Shown in pieces: positions 25,890 through 53,840 of a DNA stretch of 64,000 bases. Every line of letters starts with the position of its first letter. Within the stretch, counting starts at the first letter, position 1. The notes under the pieces were generated by a model. It was given only the letters and a program-made list of their open reading frames with translations, was not told the DNA's origin and ran no database searches. The DNA is from a bacterium (GTDB lineage Bacteria > SAR324 > JACQKK01), in NCBI GenBank assembly GCA_965205845.1, contig CBDBIG010000003.1, positions 670,305 through 734,304 on the forward strand. Direction: 5' to 3'. A program made the position numbers and the translations under genes.

Positions 25890-27197
25890 ATGCTTTTAAA
25901 AACTCTGCGACGTAGCCTTGTGCTTGCCCTCGTCATCTTGCCCATCACGGGCAGCTTGGCCTTGGCGCAGCTCACGTTTCCGTCTTTTTCGTATCGTACA
26001 GGTCCCTATGCACCCAATGGAATTCCAGTTGCGGATGGTTACAGCGACTACTTTACCTTGATAAACGCCCGTGACGGTGGAATTAATGGTCAAAAAGCGG
26101 ATGTTGTTGAGTGTGAAACGGGGTACAATACCCAGCGTGGGGTCGAGTGCTACGAAAAAGTGAAAGGGAAGAATCCCTTGATAATTCACCCTTTGTCAAC
26201 GGGTATAACATACCAACTCATTCCAAAAGCGACGGCGGATAATATTCCCATCCACTCTATGGGCTATGGGCGCACTTCTGCCGCCAACGGCAAGGTGTTC
26301 AAATATGTATTCAGCTACCCAGGCACCTACTGGGATGCAGCCTCGATCATCGTCAAGCACATTGGCAAAGAAGAAGGCGGAATGAGGAAACTCAAGGGTA
26401 AGAAAATTACGCTGATTTATCATAACTCTGCCTATGGCAAAGAACCCATACGCACCTTGCAAGTGTTGAGCAAAAAACATGGTTTCAAGCTGGATTTATT
26501 GCCCGTTGATCACCCTGGTCAAGAGCAAAGGTCTACATGGCTTAAAATACGCCGTTCGCGCCCTCGCTATTTGGTAATGTGGGGTTGGGGTGTCATGAAC
26601 CAGGTTGCCATCAAGGAAGCCGCTTCGATTCGCTTCCCCATGAAGCGTTTTATTGGCGTTTGGTGGTCTGGGTCTGAAAATGATGTGATCCCAGCGGGTA
26701 AGGGTGCCCATGGCTATAAAGCGATCACCTTCCACGATGTGGGTAAGAACTACCCCGTCTACGACGACCTCAAAAAGCATGTTTATGACAAGGGCAAAGC
26801 AGCAGGCGGTGGTGATAACACGGGTACTGTGCTCTATAATCGTGGGATGCTGGCAGCCGTGTGGGCGGTTGAAGCGGCGCGCAATGCCATGAAAATTCAC
26901 AAAACCAAAAAAATCACCCCAGCGATGATGCGTGATGGGATGGAAACATTGCACGTAGGTGAGAAGCGCCTAAAGGAATTGGGGATGGCTGGATTTACCG
27001 TAACCGTGAAAAACAGTTGCGCTAGTCATGGTGGGCCTGGCCTTGGGGCGATCCAGCAATGGAATGCAAACACCAAGCAATGGAAGCTCATTACCGGGTA
27101 TGTTGGTGCTGACCGTAGCGTTGTCGACAAGCTAATCGCAGAAGATTCTGCGGCGTATGCAAAAGAAAACAAAATCAAGGTACGCAGTTGTTCTTAA
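25890..27197 (+). CDS. ABC transporter periplasmic substrate-binding protein (LivK-like family, ~435-aa class often paired with aryl-/acyl-CoA ligases), copy 1.
   Basis: Signal peptide and type-1 PBP fold; part of the LivGHM...F operon. Confidence 0.85.
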   Translation: MLLKTLRRSLVLALVILPITGSLALAQLTFPSFSYRTGPYAPNGIPVADGYSDYFTLINARDGGINGQKADVVECETGYNTQRGVECYEKVKGKNPLIIHPLSTGITYQLIPKATADNIPIHSMGYGRTSAANGKVFKYVFSYPGTYWDAASIIVKHIGKEEGGMRKLKGKKITLIYHNSAYGKEPIRTLQVLSKKHGFKLDLLPVDHPGQEQRSTWLKIRRSRPRYLVMWGWGVMNQVAIKEAASIRFPMKRFIGVWWSGSENDVIPAGKGAHGYKAITFHDVGKNYPVYDDLKKHVYDKGKAAGGGDNTGTVLYNRGMLAAVWAVEAARNAMKIHKTKKITPAMMRDGMETLHVGEKRLKELGMAGFTVTVKNSCASHGGPGLGAIQQWNANTKQWKLITGYVGADRSVVDKLIAEDSAAYAKENKIKVRSCS

Positions 27198-27393: not shown

Positions 27394-28701
27394 ATGCCCT
27401 TAAAGACTCTTCAGCGTGGCCTTGTGCTTGCCCTCGTCATCTTGCCCATCACGGGCAGCTTGGCCTTGGCGCAGCTCGTGTTTCCGTCTTTCGCGTATCG
27501 TACAGGCCCTTATGCGCCTAATGGAATTCCAGCTGCGGATGGTTTTCTCGACTACTTCGCCCTGATAAATGCCCGTGACGGTGGGATTAATGGCCAAAAA
27601 GCCGAAGTCATCAGCTGTGAAACGGGCTACAATTCCCAGCGTGGAGTCGAGTGCTACGAAAAAGTCAAAGCAAAGAATCCCTTGGTAATTCACCCTTTGT
27701 CAACGGGTCTTACTTACCAACTCATTCCAAAAGCGACGGCGGATAAGATTCCCATCCATTCTATGGGTTATGGGCGTACTTCTGCCGCCAACGGCAAGGT
27801 ATTCAAATATGTATTCAGCTTCCCGGGTACCTACTGGGATGCAGCCTCGATCATCGTCAAGTATATTGGCAGAGAAGAAGGCGGGATGAAGAAACTCAAG
27901 GGCAAGAAAATTTCGCTAATTTATCATAACTCTGCCTATGGCAAAGAGCCCATACGCACCTTACAAGTGCTGAGCAAAAAGCATGGCTTCAAGCTGGATT
28001 TATTGCCCGTTGATCACCCTGGTCAAGAGCAGAGGTCTACATGGCTTAAGATACGCCGTTCGAACCCTCGCTATTTGGTAATATGGGGATGGGGTGTTAT
28101 GAATCAGGTAGCCCTCAGGGAAGCCGCTTCGATTCGCTTCCCCATGAAGCGTTTTATTGGCGTTTGGTGGTCTGGATCTGAAAATGATGTGATCCCAGCG
28201 GGTAAAGGCGCCCATGGCTATAAAGCGATTACCTTCCACGGTGTGGGTAAGAACTACCCTGTCTACGACGATCTCGAAAAGTATGTTTATGACAAGGGCA
28301 AAGCAGCAGGCGATGGTGACAACATGGGTACTGTGCTCTATAATCGTGGAATGCTGTCGGCTATGTGGTCTGTTGAGGGGGCACGCAGCGCCATGAAAAT
28401 TCACAAAACTAAAAAAATCACCCCAGCGATGATGCGTGATGGGATGGAAGCATTGCATGTAGGTGAGAAGCGCCTAAAGGAATTGGGGATGGCTGGATTT
28501 ACCGTAACCGTGAAAAACAGTTGCGCTAGACATGGTGGGCCTGGTCTTGGGGCGATCCAGCAATGGAATGCAAACACCAAGCAATGGAAGCTCATTACCG
28601 AGTACATCGGTGCTGACCGTGTTGTTGTCGACAAACTGGTCGCAGAAGATTCTGCGGCTTATGCAAAAGAAAACAAAATCGAGGTACGCAGTTGTTCTTA
28701 A
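27394..28701 (+). CDS. ABC transporter substrate-binding protein, tandem paralog (copy 2, ~88% identical to copy 1).
   Basis: Near-colinear translation with copy 1 (MPLKTLQRGLVLALVILPITGSLALAQL...). Confidence 0.85.
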   Translation: MPLKTLQRGLVLALVILPITGSLALAQLVFPSFAYRTGPYAPNGIPAADGFLDYFALINARDGGINGQKAEVISCETGYNSQRGVECYEKVKAKNPLVIHPLSTGLTYQLIPKATADKIPIHSMGYGRTSAANGKVFKYVFSFPGTYWDAASIIVKYIGREEGGMKKLKGKKISLIYHNSAYGKEPIRTLQVLSKKHGFKLDLLPVDHPGQEQRSTWLKIRRSNPRYLVIWGWGVMNQVALREAASIRFPMKRFIGVWWSGSENDVIPAGKGAHGYKAITFHGVGKNYPVYDDLEKYVYDKGKAAGDGDNMGTVLYNRGMLSAMWSVEGARSAMKIHKTKKITPAMMRDGMEALHVGEKRLKELGMAGFTVTVKNSCARHGGPGLGAIQQWNANTKQWKLITEYIGADRVVVDKLVAEDSAAYAKENKIEVRSCS

Positions 28702-29829: not shown

Positions 29830-31071
29830 ATGGCTTTTTTTGATTCAAAAGAAACGCGCTCGATGGACCAAAGAACATCGGAGCAATTACAGCAGCTTAA
29901 AGAAATTATTACCCACGCAAAGAAAAACTCTCTCCAGCAAGCAAAACGTTTGCGTGGCTTCCATCCCAGCACATTGAAGGGCGTGGAGGATTTGCAGTCC
30001 TTCCCGGTGTTGTACAAGGCCGATCTTGCCAAAGTCCAAGCAGAAAATCCCCCTTTTGGCGATTTAAACGCCGCAGCTGCTGAAGAATTGGGGCGTATTT
30101 ATCGTTCTCCTAACGGAGTGGTGGACGTAGAGGGTCCAAATGCGGGTGACTGGTGGCGTACTGCCCGTGCTTTGTACGCGGCGGGATTGCGCAAAGGCGA
30201 TTTGGTGCACAACAGTTTTTCTTACCACATTACCCCTGCAGGGATGATGTTGGACAGTGGAGCACGGGCATTAGGGTGCACGGTATTTCCGGCGGGTCCG
30301 AGCCATACGAGCGTACAGGCCGAAATGTTGAGTTATTTGCGTGCAAGTGCCTTTGTTGGTGTGCCTGAAACTTTGAATATAGTGCTTACAAAAGCGGATG
30401 AGTTGGGGTATGATGTGAGCTCTCTTACCAGAGCCCTTGTGTCAGGTGGCCCTTTGTTTCCGTCTGTGCGCCGGATGTTGGACGCCCGTGTCATTCAGGT
30501 GCGCGAGGCCTATGCTACGGCTGATGTGGGGCTGATATCTTATGAGAGCGGCGTCGAGGATGGCATGATGGTCGATGAGGATGTGCTGGTTGAAATTGTG
30601 CGTCCGGGCACGGGTGATCTTGTGCCGGTAGGAGAGGTGGGTGAGGTTGTGGTAACCACGCTTACCTCGTGGCAAAAGCCGATGATCCGTTTTGCTACTG
30701 GGGACCTTTCTGCCGTGCTACCGGGGCAAAGTGCTTGTGGTCGCACCAATATCCGCCTTAAAGGCTGGCTTGGACGCGCCGACCAAACCACCAAAGTGCG
30801 CGGTATGTTTGTCTATCCAGCGCATGTAGATGTCGTGCTGAAGAGATTGAAATTGACTGGCCGTGCTCGCCTCGAAATCGATCGCAAAGGAGAACGTGAT
30901 ACGATGGTGCTCAAGGTGGAACATACCCAGCCTGATTCGAGTTTGGCACAAGCACTGGCTGATTCGCTGCAAGCGGTGACGGGCTTGCGTACCGTCGCCC
31001 AAGTTGTGACACAAGGCAGTTTAGCCAACGATGGCAAAATTATTGACGACTTACGCGATTATGAGAATTAA
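29830..31071 (+). CDS. Phenylacetate-CoA ligase (PaaK)/F390-synthetase-family adenylate-forming enzyme, copy 1.
   Basis: 413 aa; PaaK-family architecture (N-terminal ANL domain, YATADVG, C-terminal ACT-like lid region). Confidence 0.75.
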   Translation: MAFFDSKETRSMDQRTSEQLQQLKEIITHAKKNSLQQAKRLRGFHPSTLKGVEDLQSFPVLYKADLAKVQAENPPFGDLNAAAAEELGRIYRSPNGVVDVEGPNAGDWWRTARALYAAGLRKGDLVHNSFSYHITPAGMMLDSGARALGCTVFPAGPSHTSVQAEMLSYLRASAFVGVPETLNIVLTKADELGYDVSSLTRALVSGGPLFPSVRRMLDARVIQVREAYATADVGLISYESGVEDGMMVDEDVLVEIVRPGTGDLVPVGEVGEVVVTTLTSWQKPMIRFATGDLSAVLPGQSACGRTNIRLKGWLGRADQTTKVRGMFVYPAHVDVVLKRLKLTGRARLEIDRKGERDTMVLKVEHTQPDSSLAQALADSLQAVTGLRTVAQVVTQGSLANDGKIIDDLRDYEN

Positions 31072-31277: not shown

Positions 31278-31343
31278 TACCGCAAGCGCTGGTTGTGAGA
31301 GTTGACAAATTTTAAAACCTTATTTGTGAAAGGAGTCCCTACT

Positions 31344-32585
31344 GTGGCCTTTTTTGATTCAAAAGAAACGCGCTCGATGGACCAAAGAACATCGGAGCAA
31401 TTACAGCAGCTTAAAGAAATTATTACCCACGCAAAGAAAAACTCTCTCCAGCAAGCAAAACGTTTGCGTGGCTTCCATCCCAGCACATTGAAGGGCGTGG
31501 AGGATTTGCAGTCCTTCCCAGTGTTGTACAAGGCCGATCTTGCCAAAGTCCAAGCAGAAAATCCCCCTTTTGGCGATTTAAACGCCGCAGCTGCTGGAGA
31601 ATTGGGGCGTATTTATCGTTCTCCTAACGGAGTGGTGGACGTAGAGGGTCCAAATGCGGGTGACTGGTGGCATTATGCCCGTGCTTTGTACGCAGCGGGA
31701 TTGCGCAAAGGTGATTTGGTGCACAACAGTTTTTCTTACCACCTGACTCCCGGAGGGATGATGTTGGACAGTGGAGCACGGGCATTAGGGTGCACGGTAT
31801 TTCCGGCGGGTCCGGGCAATACGAGCGTACAGGCCGAAATGTTGAGTTATTTGCGTGCAAGTGCCTTTGTTGGTGTGCCTGAAACTTTGAACGTCGTGCT
31901 CAAAAAAGCGGATGAGTTGGGGTATGATGTGAGCTCTCTTACCAGAGCCCTTGTGTCAGGTGGCCCTTTGTTTCCGTCTGTGCGCCGGATGTTGGACGCC
32001 CGTGTCATTCAGGTGCGCCAGGCCTATGCTACGGCTGATGTGGGGGTGATCTCTTATGAGAGCGGCGTCGAGGATGGCATGGTGGTCGATGAGGATGTAC
32101 TGGTTGAAATTGTGCGTCCGGGCACGGGTGATCCTATGCCGGTAGGAGAGGTGGGTGAGGTTGTGGTAACCACGCTTACCTCGTGGCAAAAGCCGATGAT
32201 CCGTTTTGCTACTGGGGACCTTTCTGCCGTGCTACCGGGGCAAAGTGCTTGTGGTCGCACCAATATCCGCCTTAAAGGCTGGCTTGGACGCGCCGACCAA
32301 ACCACCAAAGTGCGCGGTATGTTTGTCTATCCAGCGCATGTAGATGTCGTGCTGAAGAGATTGAAATTGACTGGCCGTGCTCGCCTCGAAATCGATCGCA
32401 AAGGAGAACGTGATACGATGGTGCTCAAGGTGGAACATACCCAGCCTGATTCGAGTTTGGCACAAGCACTGGCTGATTCGCTGCAAGCGGTGACGGGCTT
32501 GCGTACCGTCGCCCAAGTTGTGACACAAGGCAGTTTAGCCAACGATGGCAAAATTATTGACGACTTACGCGATTATGAGAATTAA
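31344..32585 (+). CDS. PaaK-like CoA ligase, copy 2 (recent duplicate; probable GTG start).
   Basis: ~97% identical to copy 1. The ATG of copy 1 is replaced by 'actgtggcc'. The ORF is open upstream to 31302 through the junction. Confidence 0.7.
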   Translation: MAFFDSKETRSMDQRTSEQLQQLKEIITHAKKNSLQQAKRLRGFHPSTLKGVEDLQSFPVLYKADLAKVQAENPPFGDLNAAAAGELGRIYRSPNGVVDVEGPNAGDWWHYARALYAAGLRKGDLVHNSFSYHLTPGGMMLDSGARALGCTVFPAGPGNTSVQAEMLSYLRASAFVGVPETLNVVLKKADELGYDVSSLTRALVSGGPLFPSVRRMLDARVIQVRQAYATADVGVISYESGVEDGMVVDEDVLVEIVRPGTGDPMPVGEVGEVVVTTLTSWQKPMIRFATGDLSAVLPGQSACGRTNIRLKGWLGRADQTTKVRGMFVYPAHVDVVLKRLKLTGRARLEIDRKGERDTMVLKVEHTQPDSSLAQALADSLQAVTGLRTVAQVVTQGSLANDGKIIDDLRDYEN

Positions 32586-34534: not shown

Positions 34535-34925
34535 AATTTCCTATGCATATCTCTGTGTCAGAGCGGTCGATAGCGGTGCGACAAAAATCAAGAAATGATG
34601 GCGTCCCTTAAAGGAAGGTGCACCATTTTGAAAGTATTTGAGTGTGCCCTAACGTACACAGATTTTGTGCTATCGGAGATGGTTGGGCAACCATGACGCC
34701 AGTGCACTGTGACTGTGCCACCACCCCTTGTGTATACATTGGTGGTCGATTCTACAAAGCGCATCCCGCACTTTTTGACACCTTTGACGAGGGGGTTGCT
34801 GTGTGGCATGGCAGCAGGTGGGTGCACGCCCTTTGGGGCTGTTGCTTTCTCGGAAGGCAAAAAATCCAAGGGGCAATCAAGGCAGATGTAAATACTGGGG
34901 CCAGGCTACTCCACCCATGGTGCAA

Positions 34926-35456
34926 CTAAAAAATACTGTTCCGCTCGGGTACACGGCCCAGCCATCTCTCCACCTTGCTTACTCCCAAAATCCAAAAAGG
35001 AGCGATGAGAATATTGTAAACTGCGCTCAAAGGGACCTCAACCAATGCCATTTGAAGCCAATTGTCGGGGCTGGCAATGGCCCAATACAACACGCCCATG
35101 CTCAGCCAACCATAAAGGATGCTTGAGATGAAAACCAAAGCACTTGGCATGATCATGCCGTCATAATCTGCCCGCGCACACAATGCACCCATCAACAAAC
35201 ACACGCCCAACAGGCTCATGCCATACACACCCAGCAAGCTGTGCGACAATACATCCAACACCAAACCCGCCAAGCATGCATAGACAAAGATAAACCGAGG
35301 ATTCCAGCGCGTAATGATGACAATAAGGGCAAGCAGCAAAAAATTCGGCTTAGCCATAGCCATAAAAACCCACGTGCCCGCCACAATTTGGATGATCAAC
35401 GCTATCACCATTTCACCAGCCAGCATTATGAACATCCGTCTATTCTCACCTTCCAA
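34926..35456 (-). CDS. mreD: Rod shape-determining protein MreD.
   Basis: 176-aa polytopic membrane protein immediately downstream of mreC. Confidence 0.7.
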   Translation of the reverse strand: MEGENRRMFIMLAGEMVIALIIQIVAGTWVFMAMAKPNFLLLALIVIITRWNPRFIFVYACLAGLVLDVLSHSLLGVYGMSLLGVCLLMGALCARADYDGMIMPSALVFISSILYGWLSMGVLYWAIASPDNWLQMALVEVPLSAVYNILIAPFWILGVSKVERWLGRVPERNSIF

Positions 35457-35477: not shown

Positions 35478-36443
35478 TTAGCGTTTTTGTAAGCCATCAT
35501 ACCTCTCTTGAGGCTGGCTAAAATAGGGCAGACTATTGGGCTCTGCACCACGCAACACCACAAACACTCCCTCTATTTGCTTAAAATTGACCGCAGGTGC
35601 AATCAAGGCGGTTTGAAACAATTCATGCTTGAGCCGCTTTACGGACATTACATACCCCACCAACAACCCTTTGGGAAACACCCCTGCAAGGCCGCTTGAT
35701 ACGACCCGATCGCCTTGCTGCATGGGAACCAAAATGGGAACACGCTTGAGGTTTAATGTGTTGCCATGGCCCTCGACAATGCCACGATAAGAAACCACGA
35801 GCTTGCGTTGTAAAGGGTTTAATTTTGGCGTGGCACCCGAGGCTTGGTTTTGATGGCGACTGCGTCCTTTTTTTCTTGCGGGCGTGTTGGCTCTCAGCAG
35901 TACGGGAAAGCGATGGCGACGGTCTAAAATAAGCTGCACAATCGCCTGGTTGCCCGACACGGTTTGAATGCGTCCCACCACCCCTTCGCGCAATACCACG
36001 GGAAAATTTCGACGAACGCCCTGGTTTAGCCCCTTATCAATCAGCAACGTTTGGTGGCCGTCTAAAGATTGCCCAATGATTTGGGCAAAAATTTTGGGGT
36101 TCAACGGGCTTTGCAAAAATACCAACTGCTCTTTAAGCAACTGGTATTGGATGCTGCTTTCCAAATGGTGGTGTACCTCCTCTTCGAGCACGCCAATGCG
36201 GGCACGCAGGCGCTTATTTTCTTCTTCCACCCCAACCAGCAAAATATAACGCCCCAACCAGTTTTCAACTCCACTGCCCACCGCATGGGTCGTATTGGTA
36301 ATGGGGCGTAGCACCCCCAATACCAGGCGGTCGATCCAGGCAAATTGCCCTAGATTTTGGGCTCGCAAATGGAGCAACACCGCCATTAAAATAAGCAGCG
36401 CCGCGGCGATGGCAAGGCGATAGCGAATAAAGAGGTTTTTCAT
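35478..36443 (-). CDS. mreC: Rod shape-determining protein MreC.
   Basis: N-terminal TM, coiled-coil (ENKRLRARIGVLEEE) and C-terminal beta domain. Operon position between mreB-like and mreD. Confidence 0.8.
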   Translation of the reverse strand: MKNLFIRYRLAIAAALLILMAVLLHLRAQNLGQFAWIDRLVLGVLRPITNTTHAVGSGVENWLGRYILLVGVEEENKRLRARIGVLEEEVHHHLESSIQYQLLKEQLVFLQSPLNPKIFAQIIGQSLDGHQTLLIDKGLNQGVRRNFPVVLREGVVGRIQTVSGNQAIVQLILDRRHRFPVLLRANTPARKKGRSRHQNQASGATPKLNPLQRKLVVSYRGIVEGHGNTLNLKRVPILVPMQQGDRVVSSGLAGVFPKGLLVGYVMSVKRLKHELFQTALIAPAVNFKQIEGVFVVLRGAEPNSLPYFSQPQERYDGLQKR

Positions 36444-36482: not shown

Positions 36483-37493
36483 CTAGGGGTTTTTGCGGAT
36501 CGCAAGTGCGATTCCACCTTGCAACATTCGCCATTCTGGCTGCTTTTGAACCTGAAAAGGCAACCGAAAGTGCTCGTTTAAAAACAAAGACAAGCCTGCC
36601 AGCCTACCCCCCCCACCCACCACACAGATACCCAATTCTTCCACATCTTGCAACAATGCCACAGGCAGTTTTCCTAAGGTATGGCGAATTGCAAGCACTA
36701 GGGGTTCACAGGCATCAATGAGCACATCACGCACCTCATTGTCTTCAAGGTAAACCGTCTTTTCAATGCCATCGTTTACCCTCACACCCCCTACCTCGAG
36801 GCTACGTGGTGTTTTAAGTGGGTGCACCGACCCAATACGCCACTTAATTTTTTCGGCTTCAATAGGGCTAATGCTCAACAAATGCACCTCGGCCAGCTCA
36901 CGCATCAAGGCTTGATCGAGTTGCTGACTGCCCCACGCAATGGGATGCCATAAGGCAACCTCATTTAGCATATATGCAAAAATGCGCGTGGTATTTGCGC
37001 CTATATCGAGGCACAATTGGCACACGCTAGCATCGCAATCTTTGCCCAACCCATGATAGATGGCGCGCCCCGCATCGATCCAGCGCAAGTTCCCAAAACC
37101 CAGTTTGTTGAATAAGGGCCGTTGCTGGTTACTGACGTGAGTACTTTCATCCTGGTAACGCAAGGCATACAAGGTGGACCAGCTGCGTAATGGCAAGTAG
37201 GTTTTGCGAACCCTCCGAACGCTTTCTTTTAAGGTGGCCTGCATAATGGCGCGTTGGGTTTTGTCGCCTTGCAAGTGCCCTTGCAGGGGCAAAAAATGTT
37301 TCATACTTTTTGCCTGCAACAGCGTGTTCATGGCTTTCTCACCCGTTATTACGCGCATCCCACCTCGAGAGACAGCTCCCCAGCAAGCCGTGCTGGCATA
37401 AGCGGCACTGGGAGTGGCAGCACGGATGTTACATTGTCCCATTTTGACACACACAGCCCAATGCTTAAAACGGTTTTTAACCAGTGACCACAT
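36483..37493 (-). CDS. mreB: MreB-like actin homolog, highly divergent, apparently lacking the canonical phosphate-1 (DLGTANT) motif.
   Basis: The C-terminal half aligns with MreB (LDIGANTTRIFAY ~ VDIGGGTTEVAV; IKWRIGSVHPL ~ IKHEIGSAYP; VVGGGGRLAGL ~ VLTGGGALLRNL). At the N-terminus, MWSLVKNRFKHWAVCVKMGQ has no DxGTANT and an in-frame TAG lies 12 nt upstream. Canonical mreBCD position. Confidence 0.6.
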   Translation of the reverse strand: MWSLVKNRFKHWAVCVKMGQCNIRAATPSAAYASTACWGAVSRGGMRVITGEKAMNTLLQAKSMKHFLPLQGHLQGDKTQRAIMQATLKESVRRVRKTYLPLRSWSTLYALRYQDESTHVSNQQRPLFNKLGFGNLRWIDAGRAIYHGLGKDCDASVCQLCLDIGANTTRIFAYMLNEVALWHPIAWGSQQLDQALMRELAEVHLLSISPIEAEKIKWRIGSVHPLKTPRSLEVGGVRVNDGIEKTVYLEDNEVRDVLIDACEPLVLAIRHTLGKLPVALLQDVEELGICVVGGGGRLAGLSLFLNEHFRLPFQVQKQPEWRMLQGGIALAIRKNP

Positions 37494-37661
37494 GTTTATG
37501 CCTTGCTACGATCGACCAACGGGCTCCATAAAGCAGGAGGTTTTTTTTAAAAAAAAAGCCACCCCAACTTCCGTAATATATAGCAGATTCAAGCAAAAAG
37601 GCATAGAAGAGGCACGGCGCACTTAAAGAGCCAACATTCCCCCGTCAGCATTTTTAAAGGC

Positions 37662-37692
37662 TTGACACAAGCGTATAAACAATGGTTCTAAT
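37662..37692 (+). promoter_or_regulatory. Putative sigma70 promoter for tRNA-Phe (-35 TTGACA, -10 TCTAAT, GC-rich discriminator).
   Basis: TTGACA at 37662-37667, TTCTAAT at ~37686-37692, ~30 nt before the tRNA 5' end. Confidence 0.4.
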
Positions 37693-37723
37693 GGAGGGGG
37701 TTGCGCGATGATATCGGCATGAC

Positions 37724-37796
<73 letters not shown>

Positions 37797-37991
37797 CCTT
37801 TTTTTGGTGCGCTTCGCACCCGTTAGGCTTACATGGTCATTTGCTTGCAGCGCGCACTGGTAACACCTTGGTTGGGTTTTCAAAAGGCTTGTTAAGCATC
37901 GCCCAATGGCGGTCCAAACCCATTGACCTGCTAAAGTAGACCCTCGTTGTCAAGCAAGGGTTTTTTTGCACCTTGGCGGCGATAGGTATTT

Positions 37992-38909
37992 ATGGCTGCT
38001 TTATTTATTAGAGGCTTTAAAAAAAAAACCGTGGTAACCATTGGGATTATTGGTGGCAGTGGGCTTTATGAAATAGAAAGCCTTGAAAATATTGAAGAAA
38101 TACAGATTGAAACACCTTTTGGGAGCACCTCATCCCCCTTGGTAAAAGGCACCTTGCACGGCAAGCCTGTGATTTTTTTGGGACGCCATGGCAAAGGCCA
38201 TCGCCTGTTACCCGCTGAGGTGCCCTACAAAGCCAACATATGGGCTTTCAAAAAATTGGGGGTCAGCCATGTACTCTCGGTTTCTGCAGTGGGTAGTTTG
38301 CGCCAAGAGATTGCCCCTGGGCATTTTGTGTTTCCCGATCAATTTATTGACAAAACCCTGCACCGTCCCTCGACTTTTTTTGGAAAAGGGGTGGTCGCCC
38401 ACGTGCAGTTTGGCCGCCCCGTATGCAAAGATTTGCTCAGTGCGCTAAGCAGCGCGGCCAGAACTTTGGGGATTCAAGCCCATAATGGCGGGGTGTATGT
38501 GTGCATGGAAGGCCCTGCTTTTTCAAGCCGTGCCGAATCGCTGATGCACCAAGGCTGGGGCGGTAGCGTGATTGGGATGACCAATGTGCAAGAAGCGCGC
38601 TTGGCAAGAGAAGCCCAAATGTGCTTTGCCACCATTGCGTTGGTTACCGACTACGACTCCTGGCACGAGGCAGAAAGCGAGGAGGTGAGCGTGGAGGCCA
38701 TTATGGCCCTTATGGCGCAAAATATTCAGTCATCCAAAATACTGCTCGCACGAGTCATTCAAGACCTTCCCGCAGACCAGCATTGCAGATACGCCAATGC
38801 CTTGCAGCATGCCATTATTACCCCACCTGCCGATATTCCAACCCAGATCAAGAAAGATCTAGCACCTATTTTAGCCGAATACCTGCAATCTAACCCATCC
38901 TCAAATTAA
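37992..38909 (+). CDS. mtnP: S-methyl-5'-thioadenosine phosphorylase (PNP/MTAP family).
   Basis: IGIIGGSGLY...ETPFG...GRHG...H..P..V.Y.ANIWA...GV..V..VSAVGSL; MTAP-type PNP fold, 305 aa. Confidence 0.8.
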   Translation: MAALFIRGFKKKTVVTIGIIGGSGLYEIESLENIEEIQIETPFGSTSSPLVKGTLHGKPVIFLGRHGKGHRLLPAEVPYKANIWAFKKLGVSHVLSVSAVGSLRQEIAPGHFVFPDQFIDKTLHRPSTFFGKGVVAHVQFGRPVCKDLLSALSSAARTLGIQAHNGGVYVCMEGPAFSSRAESLMHQGWGGSVIGMTNVQEARLAREAQMCFATIALVTDYDSWHEAESEEVSVEAIMALMAQNIQSSKILLARVIQDLPADQHCRYANALQHAIITPPADIPTQIKKDLAPILAEYLQSNPSSN

Positions 38910-38983: not shown

Positions 38984-39943
38984 ATGTCCAAAACGCCCAA
39001 AATACCCGCCACGCCGCCCCCTGAAGAAACCACGGATGAAACTCAATCTGCCAGTGGTTCTGCTGCGGAAGACATGAGCGATTCTGTGTATGTGCCACCG
39101 CCATACGGCCCTCAAGAAGCCCTTGTCGTGATTGGCAAAAAACTGCGCCAGGTACGCGAAGCACGGAGCATGAGCCTTGAAGACTTGGCAGCAATGACCC
39201 GCATTAGCCGTCGTTCTTTACAACGCATTGAAGAAGGGTTGCTCGACAAACTGCCCAACCTCACCTTTGTGCGCGGCTTTATCCGCAATTGCTTAGAGGT
39301 GTATGGCATGGAAGAATCCAGCCTAGCCGAGGAATTGCGTATCTTGGGTGGCGCGAGAAATGGCTACCAGCCACAGAAATTGCATAAAAATGACTATGCG
39401 TGGACCACCACCCTTTTAAAAAAAGAAACATCCCAAATACCACTGCTTAAAATAGTTTCTTATGTGGGGATTGCGGTGGGCCTGTTGTGGGCCGTTTACT
39501 TGTTGTATCCCTTTCATACCCAACTTAAAGAACCCACACCCACAACGGTTGAAGCGGAAAAGGTTGAGCAAAATGCTGGTTTTTCCGCGGGAGGAAGCCT
39601 TGGTTCGACAGTGCCAACCCAACCCACATCTGCCAACCAAGGCTCTAACTCTCAAACACAGACCCCACCTTTGGTGGTGGAAAGTTTGTTGTTGGAGGTC
39701 CACAGTACGGAACGCACGTGGTTACGTCTGTCCATCGATAAGGCACCGCCCGTGGATGTCTTGATTCAAAAAAATCATCGGGCTGTGTGGCGCGCCGAGA
39801 GCGGGTTTCGCCTAATTATTGGCAATACTGCCAACGTGCGTCTGGCTTTAAATGGGGAGAGTATCCCTTTAAAAACCCAGGATGGTCAGCTAAATGCCAA
39901 CCTTATCTTAGACCGTACCATGTTAAGGCAGCTCGAAAACTAA
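38984..39943 (+). CDS. rodZ: Cytoskeleton protein RodZ (HTH-XRE, TM, C-terminal DUF4115).
   Basis: HTH (LRQVREARSMSLEDLAAMTRISRRSLQRIEEG), PNLTFVRGFIRN motif, single TM (IVSYVGIAVGLLWAVYLL) and C-terminal beta domain. Confidence 0.8.
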   Translation: MSKTPKIPATPPPEETTDETQSASGSAAEDMSDSVYVPPPYGPQEALVVIGKKLRQVREARSMSLEDLAAMTRISRRSLQRIEEGLLDKLPNLTFVRGFIRNCLEVYGMEESSLAEELRILGGARNGYQPQKLHKNDYAWTTTLLKKETSQIPLLKIVSYVGIAVGLLWAVYLLYPFHTQLKEPTPTTVEAEKVEQNAGFSAGGSLGSTVPTQPTSANQGSNSQTQTPPLVVESLLLEVHSTERTWLRLSIDKAPPVDVLIQKNHRAVWRAESGFRLIIGNTANVRLALNGESIPLKTQDGQLNANLILDRTMLRQLEN

Positions 39944-39944
39944 C

Positions 39945-40480
39945 TGCCCTTGTGCTCAAAACTGCGGGTCATCAGAGCGTACCATGTTAAGGCACCGCCA
40001 ACTTGTGCTCAAAGCCGCGGGTCATCAGAGCGTACCATGTTAAGGCACCGCCAACTTGTGCTCAAAACTGCGGGTCATCAGAGCGTACCATGTTAAGGCA
40101 CCGCCAACTTGTGCTCAAAACTGCGGGTCATCAGAGCGTACCATGTTAAGGCACCGCCAACTTGTGCTCAAAACTGCGGGTCATCAGAGCGTACCATGTT
40201 AAGGCACCGCCAACTTGTGCTCAAAACTGCGGGTCATCAGAGTGTACCATGTTAAGGCACCGCCAACTTGTGCTCAAAACTGCGGGTCATCAGAGCGTAC
40301 CATGTTAAGGCACCGCCAACTTGTGCTCAAAGCCGCGGGTCATCAGAGTGTACCATGTTAAGGCACCGCCAACTTGTGCTCAAAACTGCGGGTCATCAGA
40401 GTGTACCATGTTAAGGCACCGCCAACTTGTGCTCAAAACTGCGGGTCATCAGAGCGTACCATGTTAAGGCACCGCAAAAA
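39945..40480. repeat. 53-bp tandem repeat x ~10, immediately after the rodZ stop codon; the unit is derived from the rodZ 3' end.
   Basis: 'accatgttaagg' recurs at 39980, 40033, 40086 ... 40457 (period 53). The first unit overlaps the last rodZ codons (cgtaccatgttaaggcagctcgaaaactaa). Variants are aaaactgc/aaagccgc and agagcgt/agagtgt. Confidence 0.9.
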
Positions 40481-48509: not shown

Positions 48510-51500
48510 TTAGCTTAGGTTTTGCGATTTGTGTGTTTTGCTATGGCCAAGCACCCGTTGGCAGGCGAGCACAAAAGTGCCATTTTGCAATGCGTGGTGG
48601 CTTTGTGCATCCATGTAAAAATGGTCGCTAATTTCGCGGCCCACATTGGCCAAGGTAGCCTGGGGAACCTCCACTTGAAATGCATCAAACAACTGACTTA
48701 ATTGATAAAAAACAAAAGGCGCATCATGGAGCTGGATATGTATATAAGGCAGCCTTGTGGGTTTACGTTGATATCCTTCGGGGGTTTCTTGGACAGCGTA
48801 GCTTTTATCGTCTGCGGTATAAAAATGAATCCGAGGTTTTGCCCCAGTTGGCGCTGCACGATGAGAAGGAAACGCGTCGACACCTGGTGTACTCGAACCC
48901 TGATCGACGTCAGGGCTGGGAGACAATGTGGGTGGGGTAAGCAGCGGGGGCGGCACATTGCGAATGCTCCATTCCATGTCACGGTTCCACGATTGGGGCA
49001 AAGAATCGATCGCTGCGGTTTGAAAGGCATAACAATACCCTGTCGCACCCCCTTTAAACCGAACAGGATTAAACTTGCCATTTACAATGTTAATCGCATG
49101 CACGCTGCGGCGGCTGAGTGCATAGGCCACCCGCGTATGCGATTGTTTTAAATTGCGCGTAAAAATTAAAATTTCCGTAAGACCCGTGGCGCTATTGGGC
49201 ATCGAATCAACCAGGACATCATGGCTACGAAACCCCTCAAAACGCATGCTTTGCTTGGCCAATATGGCAGGTGGACAGCGCATAAGGTGGCGATTTGGAA
49301 ATGCATGAAAAAACCAATCTAACAATGCCCCTTCTTTTTGGCTTAACAACAACAAGGTGGGCTGGGGGAGCAAGGCTTGCATGCGCTCTGCAAAGCGTTT
49401 TTCCAAGTACTGGACTTTTTGGTCGTTTGAATCGCCCATGGTTACCTGCAATTGCAAAGCTTCTAGGTTGGCCACATGCCCTTGCAATTGCTGCCATACA
49501 TCGGGGGCGTGTTGGCGCAAAGGGGCATAAAGGGCAGGTCCCATCCCCTGTTCGATGCATTTTTGCACCATCAGCTGAAAGCGGGTTTCGTATTGTTGTT
49601 CATTTTTTTGCACATCCAAACGCTGGTTAATCAGCTCCAAGGCCTCGTTCTCATTGGGAAAACCACGCATCTCTTCGAGCATCATGCAGGTGCGGGCAAA
49701 ACGGTCGCGCAAGGCTTGCTGCTGCGGATAGTGTAAAGGGCCACACGCCCCCAAAGCGGCCAAGTTCATCATAAACAAAAGCAGCAGCGTTTCTAAGCGT
49801 TGTTCAACCAAGGCAAAGCAATGGGCAAGGGCTTCGTCGGTATAGCCCTTGTTGCCAAGCAATACCAAACTGCGGTGATGCAACACCAACAACGTGGCTT
49901 TTTCGCGCATTCCTTGCTGGGTAAACCCCATTTGTGCCATGCCGTGTTGCAAGCATTCGACCCCTGCTTGATGCTGCTTGGCCAGGTCTTCCATCGCTGC
50001 AATGCCACGCGTTCCTTCCAAGTTAGGATGGCTTTCAGGGGCCCCAAAATAGCAGCACACATGCAACAAGGCAGCGCATTTTAAGGCCAAAATATCCTCA
50101 TCACGCAACATCTCATGCCACTGGGGGTATTCTTCTGCCAGGGAATTGAGTTCAATTTGGATTTGGGCTAGGGCTAAAAAAGCGGTCTGATGCAAGGCTG
50201 TATGGCTTTGGTAAGGACCTTGTGGGTATTTGCGCGCAGAATCGATGACGGGCAAAAAGCAACCCAGCAAGCTGCTGGTATGCCAATCAAAAGGATTGGA
50301 GATGGCGCAGGTTTGCTCCAAAATATTCATGGCATGGGGTGCCAGCAAAATCTGCTGCCACCACGTATTTTCCTCGGCTGTAAGCGCAGGCAAAAGGGTT
50401 TTAGCGAGAGGCAGATGGGGAAGAATTTGGCACAAAGCATCTTGCAATGCTGGCGAGAAACACAAACCCGCTTGCGCTGCATGGGCTAGGGTTTCAAGCA
50501 AGGCCATGCGCGTTATGGTAGGTGGCACCAGCACCTTGGGTGTGGCTTTTATCCCTTGGAGTAAAGAGGCTTGCATGGCAGGGGTGGCAACGCCGTGTGT
50601 GGTGGTGGCCTCAATGGCCAAAATATGGCGTTGGGCGGGGTAAATATGGAGGGTTACATGGCTTAGCTGGGTGAGGGTGGTGGGTTCTAACGCGCGTTGA
50701 ATCAGGGTTTTGGCGGTATTGTGTGCCTGTTGCAATAGTTGATGCAACAAGCACCACCCTGCTCCAGGGTTGGTGGTGTGCGGGTGCTGTGTAAAGGGAG
50801 GCGGCATGGCCACGCGATTGCGCTTTGCTGCTGCCAAATCAAACAACTGCTGGGAACGTTTGCTACTTTCGTGCTGGGTAAAGTCCGTATGATGGGCACT
50901 ATTGGCGGCACGCATCACCCAGGCCAATTCAAGGGTACGCCCTAAATGTGCGCATTCCCATACCGAGAGCAACCCTTTTTTGTGGGCTGTTTGCAGCAAG
51001 CTGGCGGGGTGAAAATTGCCCTGGGAGGATCCCCAGGTGGCACCTGCCAACCACAGGGCGTTTTGAATGGCCCGCAAGCCCCCTTGCCCATTTTTTAAGC
51101 GCAAACCCCCTCCGCCACTGGGCTGCAGAGCAAGAGCGCTGAATTCTTGCATTTTTTTTTCAATGTACGCATTGCTGGGGAAAATATCCCAGACTTGTTG
51201 GCGTAATGCGCTCAAAATACCCACATCCCCCCCAAGGTTACGCCCTTCTAAAATGGAGGTTAAAGTGTGCAAGGTTTTAGGTTTGGTAAAGCGCGAAAGA
51301 TCCTCGCCCAGTTCAAAGTACTGGTGGGCAGGGTTAAGGCCTACCGCGCGCAAAATTTCTTGCATCCGCACCACCACCTCACGCAGCAGCAGCGTTTTTG
51401 CAGAGGAATACGCGCGATCGCTCCCCGTGGCACCATGCTCCGCCATGCCATCTTCTTCGAGAACGATACAAGAACCGAGATCAAGGTCGGAATCAAAGCA

Positions 51501-52756: not shown

Positions 52757-52917
52757 CCTTAGATTGACCTTTTTAGAATAAATGCCTTTACAAAGTACTT
52801 GGCTATGCATAAATACCAAAGCCTTTGTGAGCCTTTTAAAAAAAGCATGAGCAAGCCCTTTGACCCCCGTTAAAAAAACCATCACTCCCCCTCAAATTGT
52901 TAAAAACTCAGAGAAAA
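52757..52917. repeat. Left copy of a ~160-bp direct repeat (rnr leader / 5' coding sequence) bracketing the MTase cassette.
   Basis: ctaccccccatgcccttagcccttagattgacctttttagaataaatgcctttacaaagtacttggctatgcataaataccaaagcctttgtgagcc... is ~93% identical to 54719-54900. Confidence 0.9.
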
Positions 52918-53840
52918 AATGGATTAACAAAATCCATACTGGTGATGCGCAAAAAATATTAAGGGACATGCCATCAGATTTTATTGATCTAAGTTTTTGG
53001 TCCCCGCCATATTTTGTAGGTAAGGAGTATGAGAAGTACCTATCTTTTGATGATTGGAAGAGACTGCTTGAAGGGGTTGTTTGTGGGCATGCCCGTGTTA
53101 TGAGGGACGGTGCTTTTATGGTGATAAACATCAACGATATTTTATGCTTTCCTGATCCGAGCATGCCTAGGTATATGTCTAACAATATTGGTAATAAGAG
53201 GGTACCCGTCACCAGGCAAGATGCATTAGATGCCAAACGTAAAAACCCTGATGCAAACCGTTATGAACTAGCAAAAATTCTTGGGTGTAGCGAACAAACT
53301 GTACAGCGCAGACTTGAGCATAACAATATACGTGGTGGGAAGCAGGCTACCGCCACAAAAGTTTTGTCAGTAGCTGGAATGCTACAAGCGTGGAGTGAAG
53401 CAGCGGGGCTCTATCTGTATGACCGCCGCATTTGGCATAAAGACCCATGCTGGGCAAATAGCCGATGGCATAGCAATTCATATAGATCGATTGATGAGTT
53501 TGAATATCTTTTCATATTCTGGAAACCAGGCATTGTTGACATTGACCGGTCTCGCCTTAAAAAAAACGAATGGGCTGAATGGGGGTCACGGGGGGTTTGG
53601 AATATAAAATCAATTCGCCACAATAACCGCCATGAGAGTGAATTTCCTGAAATGCTGGCGGAACGAGTTATACGCCTTTTGTCTAATCCTGAAGGTGTTG
53701 TGCTAGACCCGTTTGTTGGTTCCGGCACCACAACTGCCGTTGCCCGCCGCCTCAAACGCAGATATGTTGGCATAGACAGGCTTGATAAATATGCCGTAAT
53801 TGCCAGGGATAGAACGAATGCAATCGATAAAACGGATTGA
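52860..53840 (+). CDS. Beta-class DNA methyltransferase (SPPY...DPFVGSGTT) with an inserted HTH-like segment, in a lower-GC cassette.
   Basis: IDLSFWSPPYFVGKEYEK (motif IV region resembling the 6.5-kb pseudogene) ... EFPEMLAERVIRLL...VVLDPFVGSGTTTAVARRLKRRYVGID. The ORF opens at TTG inside the duplicated rnr leader; the first codons (TPVKKTITPPQIVKNSE) mirror the RNase R N-terminus. Confidence 0.85.
   Translation: MTPVKKTITPPQIVKNSEKKWINKIHTGDAQKILRDMPSDFIDLSFWSPPYFVGKEYEKYLSFDDWKRLLEGVVCGHARVMRDGAFMVININDILCFPDPSMPRYMSNNIGNKRVPVTRQDALDAKRKNPDANRYELAKILGCSEQTVQRRLEHNNIRGGKQATATKVLSVAGMLQAWSEAAGLYLYDRRIWHKDPCWANSRWHSNSYRSIDEFEYLFIFWKPGIVDIDRSRLKKNEWAEWGSRGVWNIKSIRHNNRHESEFPEMLAERVIRLLSNPEGVVLDPFVGSGTTTAVARRLKRRYVGIDRLDKYAVIARDRTNAIDKTD

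What the first reader, a model, noticed from the sequence alone, without database searches (positions are those of the whole stretch)
36483..37493. Canonical mreBCD locus, but MreB is highly divergent and seems to lack the phosphate-1 ATP-binding loop
Neighbouring housekeeping proteins (GreA, HemC, GuaA) are ordinarily conserved. This MreB-position protein retains only loose similarity to MreB (LDIGANTTRIFAY, IKWRIGSVHPL, VVGGGGRLAGL). Its N-terminus (MWSLVKNRFKHWAVCVKMGQ) shows no D-L-G-T-A-N-T motif, and an in-frame stop 12 nt upstream excludes an extension. Either this is a degenerate or regulatory MreB paralog, or the organism has remodelled its elongasome. The alignment is by eye and needs verification.
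Basis: partly seen in the sequence, partly recalled or inferred. Interest (0 to 1): 0.55.

Follow-up and report, generated by a model that had tools for sequence, protein, structure and literature searches.

The report
MreB with a degenerate ATP-binding half
This is the bacterium's own copy of the cell-shape actin MreB, in its usual operon, but it comes from a SAR324-related group whose MreB lost the ATP-splitting residues, and here the whole nucleotide-clamping half has also drifted almost beyond recognition while the partner genes stay well conserved.

Summary
ORF 36483-37493 (-), 336 aa, precedes mreC and mreD. RodZ, an MTAP-like phosphorylase and tRNA-Phe lie upstream. Pfam MreB_Mbl matches only residues 148-328, at 95 bits; canonical MreB scores 483-492 bits.

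It is not a frameshift, a fusion or a stray paralogue. Gene order is the same in SAR324 / Lambdaproteobacteria MAGs. The C-half groups with their divergent MreB subfamily (83/100 bootstraps). The N-half is collinear with MreB but keeps only 6.5 bits of signal, against 52-113 bits in relatives.

All 25 subfamily members lack the E...T-X-[D/E] hydrolysis motif. This copy also has Lys17 in place of the phosphate-1 Asp, and DIGANTT in place of DIGGGTT. In this clade MreB evolves faster than MreC (40% vs 59% identity), the reverse of an outgroup (80% vs 57%).

An intact PBP2 appears to lie on the same contig, outside the window.

Most likely this is a translated, hydrolysis-dead MreB kept for its domain II, which is RodZ-facing in solved complexes. 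A decaying relic is the main rival. Whether a canonical mreB exists elsewhere in the genome could not be tested.

I rate it a new variant of a known kind, of moderate interest.

The parts
36483..37493 (-). mreB-like ORF, 336 aa (includes the stop codon at 36483-36485)
   Evidence: ORF listed. PF06723 scores 94.9 bits over residues 148-328 only. The AF2 model built from an MSA matches the full-length MreB fold with TM 0.82-0.85.
37053..37493 (-). N-half, residues 1-147. Corresponds to actin-fold domain I (subdomains IA/IB). Degenerate.
   Evidence: No Pfam or PDB sequence match. Scores 6.5 bits against the subfamily HMM, versus 52-113 bits for relatives; the best of 300 shuffles was 3.8. Identity to relatives is 15.8%. 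Hydrophobic residues are kept at 72% of family-hydrophobic columns. Coding potential is 0.18 bits/codon, the 6th percentile of real genes, against -0.47 off-frame.
37461..37493 (-). N-terminal segment MWSLVKNRFKH. It corresponds in position to the N-terminal amphipathic membrane-binding helix of Gram-negative MreB.
   Evidence: BLASTP aligns query 1-312 to residues 1-312 of a canonical MreB (L011), whose N-terminus is MWSYLKNVF. The helix function is from general knowledge and was not tested.
37425..37448 (-). Phosphate-1 loop position, V16-K17-M-G19-Q-C-N22-I23 (canonical I-D-L-G-T-A-N-T)
   Evidence: Alignments. Asp is replaced by Lys17, Thr by Gln20, Thr by Ile23. Gly19 and Asn22 are kept.
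37071..37076 (-). D140-A141 at the canonical E-E of 'EEP'. A141 occupies the catalytic Glu position (C. crescentus E140).
   Evidence: The motif definition is from PMC9597168.
36984..37007 (-). Phosphate-2 loop D163-I-G165-A166-N167-T168-T169-R170 (canonical D-I-G-G-G-T-T-E)
   Evidence: Asp and Thr are kept. Gly-Gly is replaced by Ala-Asn. The acidic residue of T-X-[D/E] is replaced by Arg.
36483..37052 (-). C-half, residues 148-336. Corresponds to domain II (IIA/IIB) plus the C-terminal helix. Conserved.
   Evidence: Scores 187.5 bits against the subfamily HMM. Identity to relatives is 33.9%. 20 of 24 columns conserved in at least 85% of the canonical-like MreBs are kept. AF2 pLDDT is 94-98.
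36699..36743 (-). Subfamily signature D251-NEVRDVLIDACEP-L265
   Evidence: Consensus LDDNEIRDVLVDACEPLV in the subfamily alignment. This was the pattern used to retrieve SAR324-like loci.
36600..36617 (-). Adenosine-binding motif G293-G-G-G-R-L298, retained
35478..36443 (-). mreC, 321 aa
   Evidence: PF04085 at 122 bits. 40-48% identical to the MreC of SAR324-like relatives over nearly the full length.
34926..35456 (-). mreD, 176 aa
   Evidence: PF04093 at 38 bits and TIGR03426 at 40.1 bits, above its cutoff of 34.85.
37724..37798 (+). tRNA-Phe (GAA), divergent from mreB. A syntenic marker.
   Evidence: The same tRNA sits between MTAP and mreB-like in L001, L003, L006 and L008.
37992..38909 (+). 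MTAP-like purine/MTA phosphorylase. A syntenic neighbour.
   Evidence: PF01048 at 155 bits. 55-59% identical to the neighbour of mreB-like in relatives.
38984..39943 (+). rodZ-like gene (HTH_25 plus RodZ_C domains)
   Evidence: Syntenic in L001, L003, L006 and L008.

Best explanation
This is the vertically inherited mreB of an uncultured, deep-branching relative of the SAR324 / 'Lambdaproteobacteria' MAG clade.

In that clade the operon-encoded MreB forms a fast-evolving subfamily. It has lost the E...T-X-[D/E] motif that activates the water for ATP hydrolysis, and its domain I (subdomains IA/IB) is under relaxed constraint.

The copy in this window is the extreme case:
- Domain I keeps the length, the N-terminal helix, a few glycines/prolines and much of the hydrophobic pattern of MreB, but almost no sequence identity.
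- The Mg-coordinating phosphate-1 Asp is a Lys.
- The phosphate-2 Gly-Gly is Ala-Asn.
- Domain II, which carries the adenosine motif and, in solved complexes, the RodZ-binding face, is conserved at about the rate expected for this lineage.

Most likely mechanism (inferred, not shown): the protein is still made and folds as an actin-like protein, but cannot hydrolyse ATP and probably binds Mg-nucleotide poorly or differently. It would then act as a static scaffold or adaptor, through domain II, for RodZ, MreC, MreD and PBP2, rather than as a nucleotide-cycling filament. Selection to express domain II would also explain why the upstream 147 codons stay open.

Shown: identity as mreB ortholog, subfamily membership, motif losses, asymmetric decay of the two halves, conservation of the partner genes.
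Inferred: expression, folding of domain I, loss of ATPase activity, scaffold role.
For: Orthology and synteny:
- The order RodZ, MTAP, tRNA-Phe, then mreB-like, mreC, mreD occurs in L001, L003, L006 and L008. mreB-like-mreC-mreD-mrdA occurs in L002-L010.

Subfamily membership:
- The query carries the shared signature DNEVRDVLIDACEPL.
- An NJ tree of the C-half puts query plus subfamily together in 83 of 100 bootstraps.

Clade-wide change:
- 25/25 members have no Glu at the Cc-E140 position, 17/25 have Lys/Arg at the Cc-T167 position, and 25/25 have no acidic residue at the Cc-E169 position.
- That motif is reported conserved in 95.8% of non-Spiroplasma MreBs, and its loss gives very slow Pi release in Spiroplasma MreB3 (PMC9597168).

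Rate reversal:
- Among relatives MreB-like is 40% identical, MreC 59% and MTAP 65%.
- In the outgroup L011/L012, MreB is 80% and MreC 57% identical, and their MreB is 56-62% identical to E. coli MreB.

N-half is homologous but degenerate:
- BLASTP alignment 1-312 to canonical MreB starts at the same Met-Trp-Ser.
- 6.5 bits (E = 2.4e-4 for one target) exceeds all 300 shuffles, against 52-113 bits for relatives.

Not an artefact:
- The other frames are full of stops and contain no MreB-like segments.

Still looks coding and foldable:
- The ORF is intact and of canonical length.
- Codon log-odds are positive.
- 72% of hydrophobic core columns are kept.
- The AF2 model with MSA has pLDDT 90.3, and Foldseek gives TM 0.82-0.85 to MreB structures over about 325 columns.

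Partners maintained:
- MreC is 45% identical over its full length.
- RodZ domains are present.
- PBP2 (P0339) is on a contig of the same length (877,621 bp). It is 52% identical and has intact STFK, SCN and KTG motifs.
Against: - No close relative of this organism exists in the databases searched (best MreC hit 45-49%). Purifying selection on the N-half therefore cannot be measured.
- The N-half's coding score is low (6th percentile), and its similarity to the family is near the noise floor. Both also fit a region drifting without function.
- The AF2 fold of domain I is driven by the family alignment. The single-sequence model failed completely (pLDDT 32), so folding of domain I is not independently supported.
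- The hydrophobic-pattern test uses an alignment that was itself optimised on such matches.
- Nothing here shows expression, nucleotide binding or partner binding.
- The rest of the genome could not be scanned for a canonical mreB.
Confidence: 0.6

Rival explanations
1. A relic in decay. The lineage no longer needs MreB, much as ovococci keep MreC, MreD, RodZ and PBP2b but have no MreB. The gene is drifting towards loss, domain I has gone first, and the ORF is open only because decay is recent or by chance.
For: - The N-half has 15.8% identity and 6.5 bits, far below every relative.
- It has lost residues at three nucleotide-binding elements.
- Its codon signature is weaker.
- The operon is broken after mreD, with mrdA-maf relocated.
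- The C-half branch is about 1.3 times the subfamily mean.
- The precedent of MreCD/RodZ/PBP2b without MreB in Streptococcus is from general knowledge.
Against: - If the sequence were drifting to saturation, 147 stop-free codons would be expected with probability about (61/64)^147, or roughly 1e-3 (my arithmetic).
- There is no frameshift, and the length is canonical (147 vs 149 residues up to the split point in E. coli MreB).
- The C-half is conserved in proportion to MreC: the query-to-relative over within-relative identity ratio is 0.77 for the C-half and 0.76 for MreC.
- The N-terminal helix and the start codon are preserved.
- The clade as a whole has kept this divergent gene over long divergence.
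Confidence: 0.25
2. A specialised or regulatory MreB working beside a canonical MreB encoded elsewhere in the genome, as the ATPase-poor MreB3 works beside other MreBs in Spiroplasma. The canonical copy would then carry the Rod-system function.
For: - Relaxed constraint is what is expected after duplication.
- Spiroplasma MreB3 shows that motif-deficient MreBs coexist with active ones (PMC9597168).
- Only 64 kb of a contig of at least 877 kb could be examined.
Against: - This copy occupies the ancestral operon position in every relative. Any canonical copy would have to be the displaced one.
- No second mreB was found in the window, nor in the flanks of the ten related loci, where E. coli MreB hit only the operon copy.
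- The outgroup lineages with canonical MreB carry it in the operon.
Confidence: 0.12
3. A sequencing or assembly artefact. Compensating indels scrambled the first 147 codons of an otherwise ordinary subfamily MreB.
For: - The genome seems to be a long contig from a metagenome assembly, and related records look like long-read assemblies.
- The divergence is concentrated in one contiguous half.
Against: - The two alternative frames on this strand contain many stops.
- tblastn with about 70 MreB N-halves finds nothing above 24 bits in any frame.
- The in-register weak hits are all in the annotated frame.
- Family-conserved G19, G51, P69, G76, G132, A144 and G148 are at the right spacing in the annotated frame.
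Confidence: 0.03

Closest known systems
Canonical MreB (E. coli, C. crescentus, T. maritima; Pfam PF06723)
   Same: - Same operon position, upstream of mreC and mreD, with rodZ nearby.
- Same length.
- The predicted fold matches MreB structures with TM 0.82-0.85.
- Domain II, the phosphate-2 Asp and the adenosine GGG motif are retained.
- The N-terminal helix-like segment is retained.
   Different: - Only about 20-25% identical overall.
- The Pfam score is 95 bits against 483-492 bits, and covers only the C-half.
- The phosphate-1 Asp is Lys, the catalytic Glu is Ala, the phosphate-2 GG is AN, and the acidic residue after Thr is Arg.
- It evolves faster than MreC.
Operon-encoded MreB of SAR324 cluster / Candidatus Lambdaproteobacteria MAGs (e.g. 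MBI3993400.1 = P0002; loci L001-L010), annotated only as 'rod shape-determining protein'
   Same: - Same synteny.
- Shared signature LDDNE[IV]RDVL[VI]DACEPL.
- No Glu at the catalytic position.
- Domain I is less conserved than domain II.
- Groups with the query in 83/100 bootstraps.
   Different: - Relatives score 148-200 bits to Pfam, mostly over the full length.
- Most keep the phosphate-1 Asp (18 of 22 aligned) and the GGG of phosphate-2.
- Their N-halves score 52-113 bits, against 6.5 here.
- Their operon continues into mrdA-maf, which is missing from this locus.
Spiroplasma MreB3 (PDB 7E1C/7E1G)
   Same: - An MreB that naturally lacks the E...T-X-[D/E] motif, has very slow Pi release and still forms filaments (PMC9597168).
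- It is among the top structural matches.
- Many SAR324-like members even share Lys at the Thr position.
   Different: - Unrelated lineage: a wall-less Mollicute in which MreB3 is one of five paralogues serving motility.
- MreB3 has D...K-X-S and an intact phosphate-1 loop. This protein has A...T-T-R and a Lys at phosphate-1.
- This protein sits in a peptidoglycan Rod-system operon.
Ovococcal elongation machinery without MreB (Streptococcus pneumoniae: MreC, MreD, RodZ, PBP2b, RodA). General knowledge, not tested here.
   Same: MreC, MreD, RodZ and a class-B PBP2 are kept and conserved while MreB function is dispensable or absent. This is the end state that the relic hypothesis predicts.
   Different: Here an intact full-length mreB ORF with a conserved domain II is still present.

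Membership tests
MreB/Mbl (PF06723) | Significant profile match above the curated threshold | tested here: met
   94.9 bits against a cutoff of 27, E = 5.7e-27. The match covers only residues 148-328, profile positions 136-316 of 327. It falls far below the NCBIfam MreB cutoffs: 86.7 vs 293 and 76.5 vs 365.75.
MreB/Mbl (PF06723) | Four-subdomain actin/ASKHA fold over the full length | tested here: inconclusive
   AF2 with a 70-sequence MSA gives pLDDT 90.3 and TM 0.82-0.85 to MreB structures over about 325 columns. However, domain I of the model is alignment-driven, and the single-sequence model failed. Independent hints: collinearity, 72% of hydrophobic columns kept, and residual HMM signal.
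MreB/Mbl (PF06723) | Phosphate-1 loop D-x-G-[TS]-x-N-[TS] | tested here: not met
   The sequence is K17-M-G19-Q20-C-N22-I23. Asp occupies this column in 42 of 47 canonical-like MreBs and 18 of 22 aligned subfamily MreBs.
MreB/Mbl (PF06723) | Hydrolysis motif E...T-X-[D/E] (C. crescentus E140, T167, E169; PMC9597168) | tested here: not met
   The query has A141...T168-T169-R170. Two of the three positions are lost.
MreB/Mbl (PF06723) | Phosphate-2 loop D-x-G-G-G-T-T | tested here: not met
   The query has D163-I-G165-A166-N167-T168-T169. Asp, the first Gly and the Thr-Thr are kept. The second and third Gly are replaced.
MreB/Mbl (PF06723) | Adenosine motif G-G-G-[AS]-x-L | tested here: met
   G293-G-G-G-R-L298.
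MreB/Mbl (PF06723) | Encoded in an mreBCD operon | tested here: met
   mreC starts 39 nt after the stop codon and mreD follows. Gene order is conserved in 10 related loci.
MreB/Mbl (PF06723) | ATP-dependent polymerisation into antiparallel double filaments on the membrane | not testable with these tools
   This needs purified protein.
SAR324-like divergent MreB subfamily (defined here) | Signature LDDNE[IV]RDVL[VI]DACEPL, a non-acidic residue at the catalytic Glu position, and the operon position next to tRNA-Phe/MTAP/RodZ | tested here: met
   The query has D251-NEVRDVLIDACEP-L265 and A141, with the same synteny. The C-half NJ tree gives monophyly in 83/100 bootstraps.
SAR324-like divergent MreB subfamily (defined here) | N-half recognisably similar to other members | tested here: not met
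   6.5 bits against 52-113 bits for the 25 members in a leave-one-out test.
Pseudogene | Premature stop, frameshift or truncation relative to family members | tested here: not met
   The ORF is uninterrupted over 336 codons, with start and stop at the family-typical positions. No MreB-like segments occur in other frames.
Pseudogene | Loss of purifying selection (dN/dS about 1) | not testable with these tools
   No relative closer than about 36% (MreB) or 49% (MreC) identity exists among 5.8 billion clusters or 1.84 billion representatives.

The most novel reading that the evidence does not exclude
A whole bacterial clade (SAR324 / Lambdaproteobacteria-like) runs a complete peptidoglycan Rod system (MreC, MreD, PBP2, RodZ) with an MreB that has given up ATP hydrolysis. 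In this genome the MreB has gone further and become an actin-fold pseudo-ATPase: its domain I no longer clamps Mg-nucleotide, and it works as a static domain-II scaffold. That would mean nucleotide cycling is not a universal requirement for MreB-guided wall growth.
Probability: 0.3. Interest if true: 0.7.

Novelty: new variant of a known kind. Interest (0 to 1): 0.45.

Why it matters
MreB is normally one of the most conserved cell-envelope proteins, and in model rods its ATPase-site mutants are defective. Here a natural lineage keeps mreB in the classical operon alongside conserved MreC, MreD, RodZ and PBP2, yet has lost the hydrolysis motif clade-wide. In one genome it has also lost the phosphate-1 Asp and almost all of the domain I sequence.

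If the protein is functional, it gives a natural separation-of-function allele series: the subfamily, then this extreme member. That series could be used to ask what MreB's nucleotide cycle and domain I are actually needed for, and which surface (domain II / RodZ) is sufficient.

If it is a relic, it captures an intermediate stage on the route to the MreB-less state of the elongation machinery seen in ovococci.

There is also a practical annotation point: Pfam calls this protein MreB, but it fails every NCBIfam MreB cutoff.

Tried and rejected
- Frameshift or hidden canonical N-terminus: rejected. Translations of the other frames are full of stops. tblastn with E. coli MreB and with about 70 N-halves gave nothing above 24 bits off-frame.
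- Upstream extension: rejected. An in-frame TAG lies 12 nt before the ATG, and the start aligns with canonical MreB starts.
- Foreign or fused N-terminal domain: rejected, on collinearity and residual family signal.
- Single-sequence AF2: uninformative (pLDDT 32 even for the conserved half).
- Own-genome context: could not be retrieved.
  - The look-up of encoding contigs has no record for P0001 or P0339.
  - The genome is not among the GTDB representatives that were scanned.
  - A genome-wide search for a second mreB or for rodA was therefore impossible.
- Second mreB in the window: none.
- PBP2 or Maf remnants in the window: none at E <= 1.
- Literature on SAR324 / Lambdaproteobacteria MreB: nothing relevant in the held library.
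- N-half basic charge (pI 10.7, net +17): MreB N-halves in the comparison sets are basic in general (means 10.6 and 9.2), so this is only a matter of degree.
- Promoter and terminator scans were at background level.
Full report
**1. What is there**

The minus-strand ORF 36483..37493 encodes 336 aa.
An in-frame TAG sits 12 nt ahead of the ATG, so the ORF cannot be extended.
- Thirty-nine nucleotides downstream begins MreC (35478..36443; PF04085, 122 bits). MreD follows (34926..35456; PF04093 38 bits; TIGR03426 above its cutoff).
- Upstream and divergent are tRNA-Phe (37724..37798), an MTAP-like phosphorylase (37992..38909) and a RodZ-like protein with HTH_25 and RodZ_C domains (38984..39943).
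- HemC and GuaA elsewhere in the window are ordinary strong matches.

**2.

- Pfam MreB_Mbl matches only residues 148-328 (profile 136-316 of 327) at 94.9 bits. NCBIfam MreB models score 72-87 bits, far below their cutoffs of 293-515.
- PDB MreB chains match from about residue 136-160 onward.
- Canonical MreBs from two related lineages score 483-492 bits over the full length with the same model.
- In 1.84 billion representative proteins the only full-length match is the protein itself. The next best scores 138 bits, at 36% identity over residues 122-330.

**3. It is not an artefact or a fusion**

- The two other frames of the strand across the N-terminal region are full of stops.
That remembered sequence is validated by 56-62% identity to the tool-derived MreBs of L011/L012. 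The search found no second mreB.
- tblastn of about 70 MreB N-halves against 36900-37800 gave nothing above 24 bits in any frame. The in-register weak hits are in the annotated frame.
- BLASTP against a canonical MreB (locus L011) aligns query 1-312 to subject 1-312 at 25% identity. The N-termini are MWSLVKNRF and MWSYLKNVF.
- The N-half alone (residues 1-147) scores 6.5 bits against an HMM of the related subfamily built without the query (E = 2.4e-4 for a single target). The 300 shuffles had mean -1.5, sd 1.3 and maximum 3.8.
- The N-half is therefore a homologous, collinear and extremely diverged MreB domain I. The equation of the two halves with domain I (IA/IB) and domain II (IIA/IIB) rests on the published MreB structures and is general knowledge.

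**4. Whose gene it is**

- A pattern scan of one genome per GTDB species, using the subfamily signature, returned ten loci. They come from MAGs labelled SAR324 cluster, Candidatus Lambdaproteobacteria, Deltaproteobacteria or 'bacterium'. The window's own genome was not among them.
- In L001, L003, L006 and L008 the order is RodZ, MTAP, tRNA-Phe, then mreB-like, mreC, mreD, exactly as in the window.
- MreC of the window is 40-48% identical to theirs over nearly the full length. No closer relative exists among 5.8 billion clusters.
- An NJ tree of the C-half (191 columns) puts the query with the subfamily in 83 of 100 bootstraps. It is nested within the subfamily in 69 and sister to it in 17. 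Its branch is 0.83, against 0.62 +/- 0.08 for members.
- This is therefore the syntenic ortholog, not a stray paralogue.

**5. A clade-wide oddity**

- Among the relatives, MreB-like proteins are on average 40% identical, while their MreC are 59% and MTAP 65%.
- Two outgroup lineages (L011, L012) have MreC about 40% identical to the window's. They carry mreB-mreC-mreD-mrdA with canonical MreB. Those MreBs are 80% identical to each other, against 57% for their MreC, and 56-62% identical to E. coli MreB. The usual conservation order is thus reversed in the SAR324-like clade.
- Within the subfamily the N-half is much less conserved than the C-half (26.7% vs 44.2%). In three canonical MreBs both halves are equally conserved (66.9% vs 63.0%).
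- The hydrolysis motif E...T-X-[D/E] (C. crescentus E140, T167, E169) is reported as conserved in 95.8% of non-Spiroplasma MreBs and needed for Pi release (PMC9597168). It is absent in all 25 subfamily members:
  - no Glu at the first position (A/S/I/L/V/M instead);
  - Lys/Arg at the Thr position in 17;
  - no acidic residue at the third position.
- They mostly keep the phosphate-1 Asp (18 of 22 aligned) and the phosphate-2 Asp (21 of 25).

**6. What is unique to this copy**

- Phosphate-1 reads V-K17-M-G19-Q-C-N22-I instead of I-D-L-G-T-A-N-T.
- The EEP segment reads D140-A141-G142.
- Phosphate-2 reads D163-I-G-A166-N167-T-T-R170 instead of D-I-G-G-G-T-T-E.
- The adenosine motif GGGGRL is intact.
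- Of the columns conserved in at least 85% of canonical-like MreBs, the query keeps 7 of 15 in the N-half and 20 of 24 in the C-half.
- In a leave-one-out test, relatives' N-halves score 52-113 bits (N/C ratio 0.22-0.40). The query's scores 6.5 bits (ratio 0.03).
- A few other members (P0011, P0014, P0022) are intermediate. They have degenerate phosphate-1 loops, only partial Pfam coverage of the N-half, or both.
- The operon is also truncated here. All relatives continue mreD-mrdA(PBP2)-maf, whereas the window has an opposite-strand MFS transporter after mreD and no PBP2 or Maf anywhere.
- PBP2 is not lost, however. A singleton protein (P0339, 629 aa) is 52% identical to a relative's operon PBP2 and has STFK, SCN and KTG intact. 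That it is the same contig is an inference from the identical length.

**7. Is the N-half still doing something?**

For:
- It has 147 open codons with no indel relative to canonical length. Random drift to saturation would leave it open with probability about 1e-3 (my arithmetic).
- Codon log-odds are 0.18 bits/codon. Real-gene windows give 0.355 +/- 0.10 (the N-half is at the 6th percentile) and off-frame windows give -0.47 +/- 0.14.
- Hydrophobic residues occupy 72% of 39 family-hydrophobic columns, against a 44% background. No circular shift reached that value. The alignment itself favours such matches.
- The AF2 model with a 70-sequence MSA has pLDDT 90.3 (N-half blocks 70-93) and matches MreB structures at TM 0.82-0.85. 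The MSA largely dictates that fold.

Against:
- The near-noise similarity, the weaker codon signature and the loss of the Mg-coordinating Asp.

An important point is that the C-half is conserved in proportion to the lineage's depth. Query-to-relative identity divided by within-relative identity is:
- 0.77 for the C-half;
- 0.76 for MreC;
- 0.87 for MTAP;
- 0.59 for the N-half.

Selection to express domain II would by itself keep the upstream codons open.

**8. Interpretation**

- Best supported: a translated, hydrolysis-dead and probably nucleotide-impaired MreB, retained for what domain II does. Domain II is the RodZ-facing side in the solved MreB-RodZ complex (PDB 2WUS appears among the matches; the interface location is general knowledge). 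The protein would act with RodZ, MreC, MreD and PBP2 as a static scaffold. Confidence 0.6.
- Main rival: a relic on the way to the MreB-less state known from ovococci. Confidence 0.25.
- A division of labour with an undiscovered canonical MreB cannot be excluded, but it is disfavoured by synteny. Confidence 0.12.
- An assembly artefact is unlikely. Confidence 0.03.

**9. Novelty**

- The proteins are annotated in MAGs simply as rod shape-determining proteins.
- I found no paper in the held library on SAR324 or Lambdaproteobacteria MreB.
- The nearest functional analogue is Spiroplasma MreB3, which is phylogenetically and contextually different.
- I rate this a new variant of a known kind: interesting to MreB specialists, but entirely in silico and from an uncultured lineage.

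Noticed in passing
window 39949-40475: A near-perfect tandem array of a 53-bp unit, 9.9 copies, 97% matches. It lies in the gap between rodZ and a DUF3047 gene and generates spurious repeated ORFs (MCSKLRVIR...). Its function is unknown.
   Followed up: partly
window 34535-34925, and L002-L010 downstream of mreD: All SAR324-like relatives continue mreD-mrdA(PBP2)-maf. In the window the operon ends after mreD and an opposite-strand MFS transporter follows. A conserved PBP2 (P0339, 52% identical, catalytic motifs intact) is recorded on a contig of the same length (877,621 bp), so mrdA seems to have moved rather than been lost.
   Followed up: yes
window 35478-36443 (MreC): MreC is 321 aa, against 298-300 aa in nearly all relatives. 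The Pfam barrel match spans 168 residues for 138 profile positions. By eye the extra segment is a basic stretch (RANTPARKKGRSRHQNQASGATPKLNPLQRK) inside the barrel region.
   Followed up: partly
P0011, P0014, P0022 (subfamily members): Other members of the SAR324-like MreB subfamily also show phosphate-1 loops that depart from the consensus (IMPGAARL, ADVGTSRI, IVPGSAHF), partial Pfam coverage of the N-half, or both. The window's protein is therefore the end of a gradient rather than a lone outlier.
   Followed up: partly
window 52860-54459 and 16906-17724: An N6/N4 DNA methylase is followed by an SfiI-like type II restriction enzyme (overlapping ORFs). There is a second, orphan N6/N4 methylase elsewhere in the window.
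   Followed up: no
window 48510-52292 (-): A 1260-aa ORF with no Pfam match at E <= 1e-5.
   Followed up: no
window 25890-27197 / 27394-28701, and 29830-31071 / 31302-32585: Two pairs of tandem, similar-length ORFs. One pair is 435 aa each. The other is 413 and 427 aa, and both of those carry AMP-binding plus AMP-binding_C_2 domains. The pairs lie next to an ABC ATPase and look like tandem paralogues in a fatty-acid or aromatic-acid catabolic neighbourhood.
   Followed up: no
L008 and L009: Two contigs of the same MAG (JAOUEW010000006.1 and JAOUEW010000005.1) carry identical 16.8-kb stretches around the mre locus. This is probably an assembly or binning duplication.
   Followed up: no
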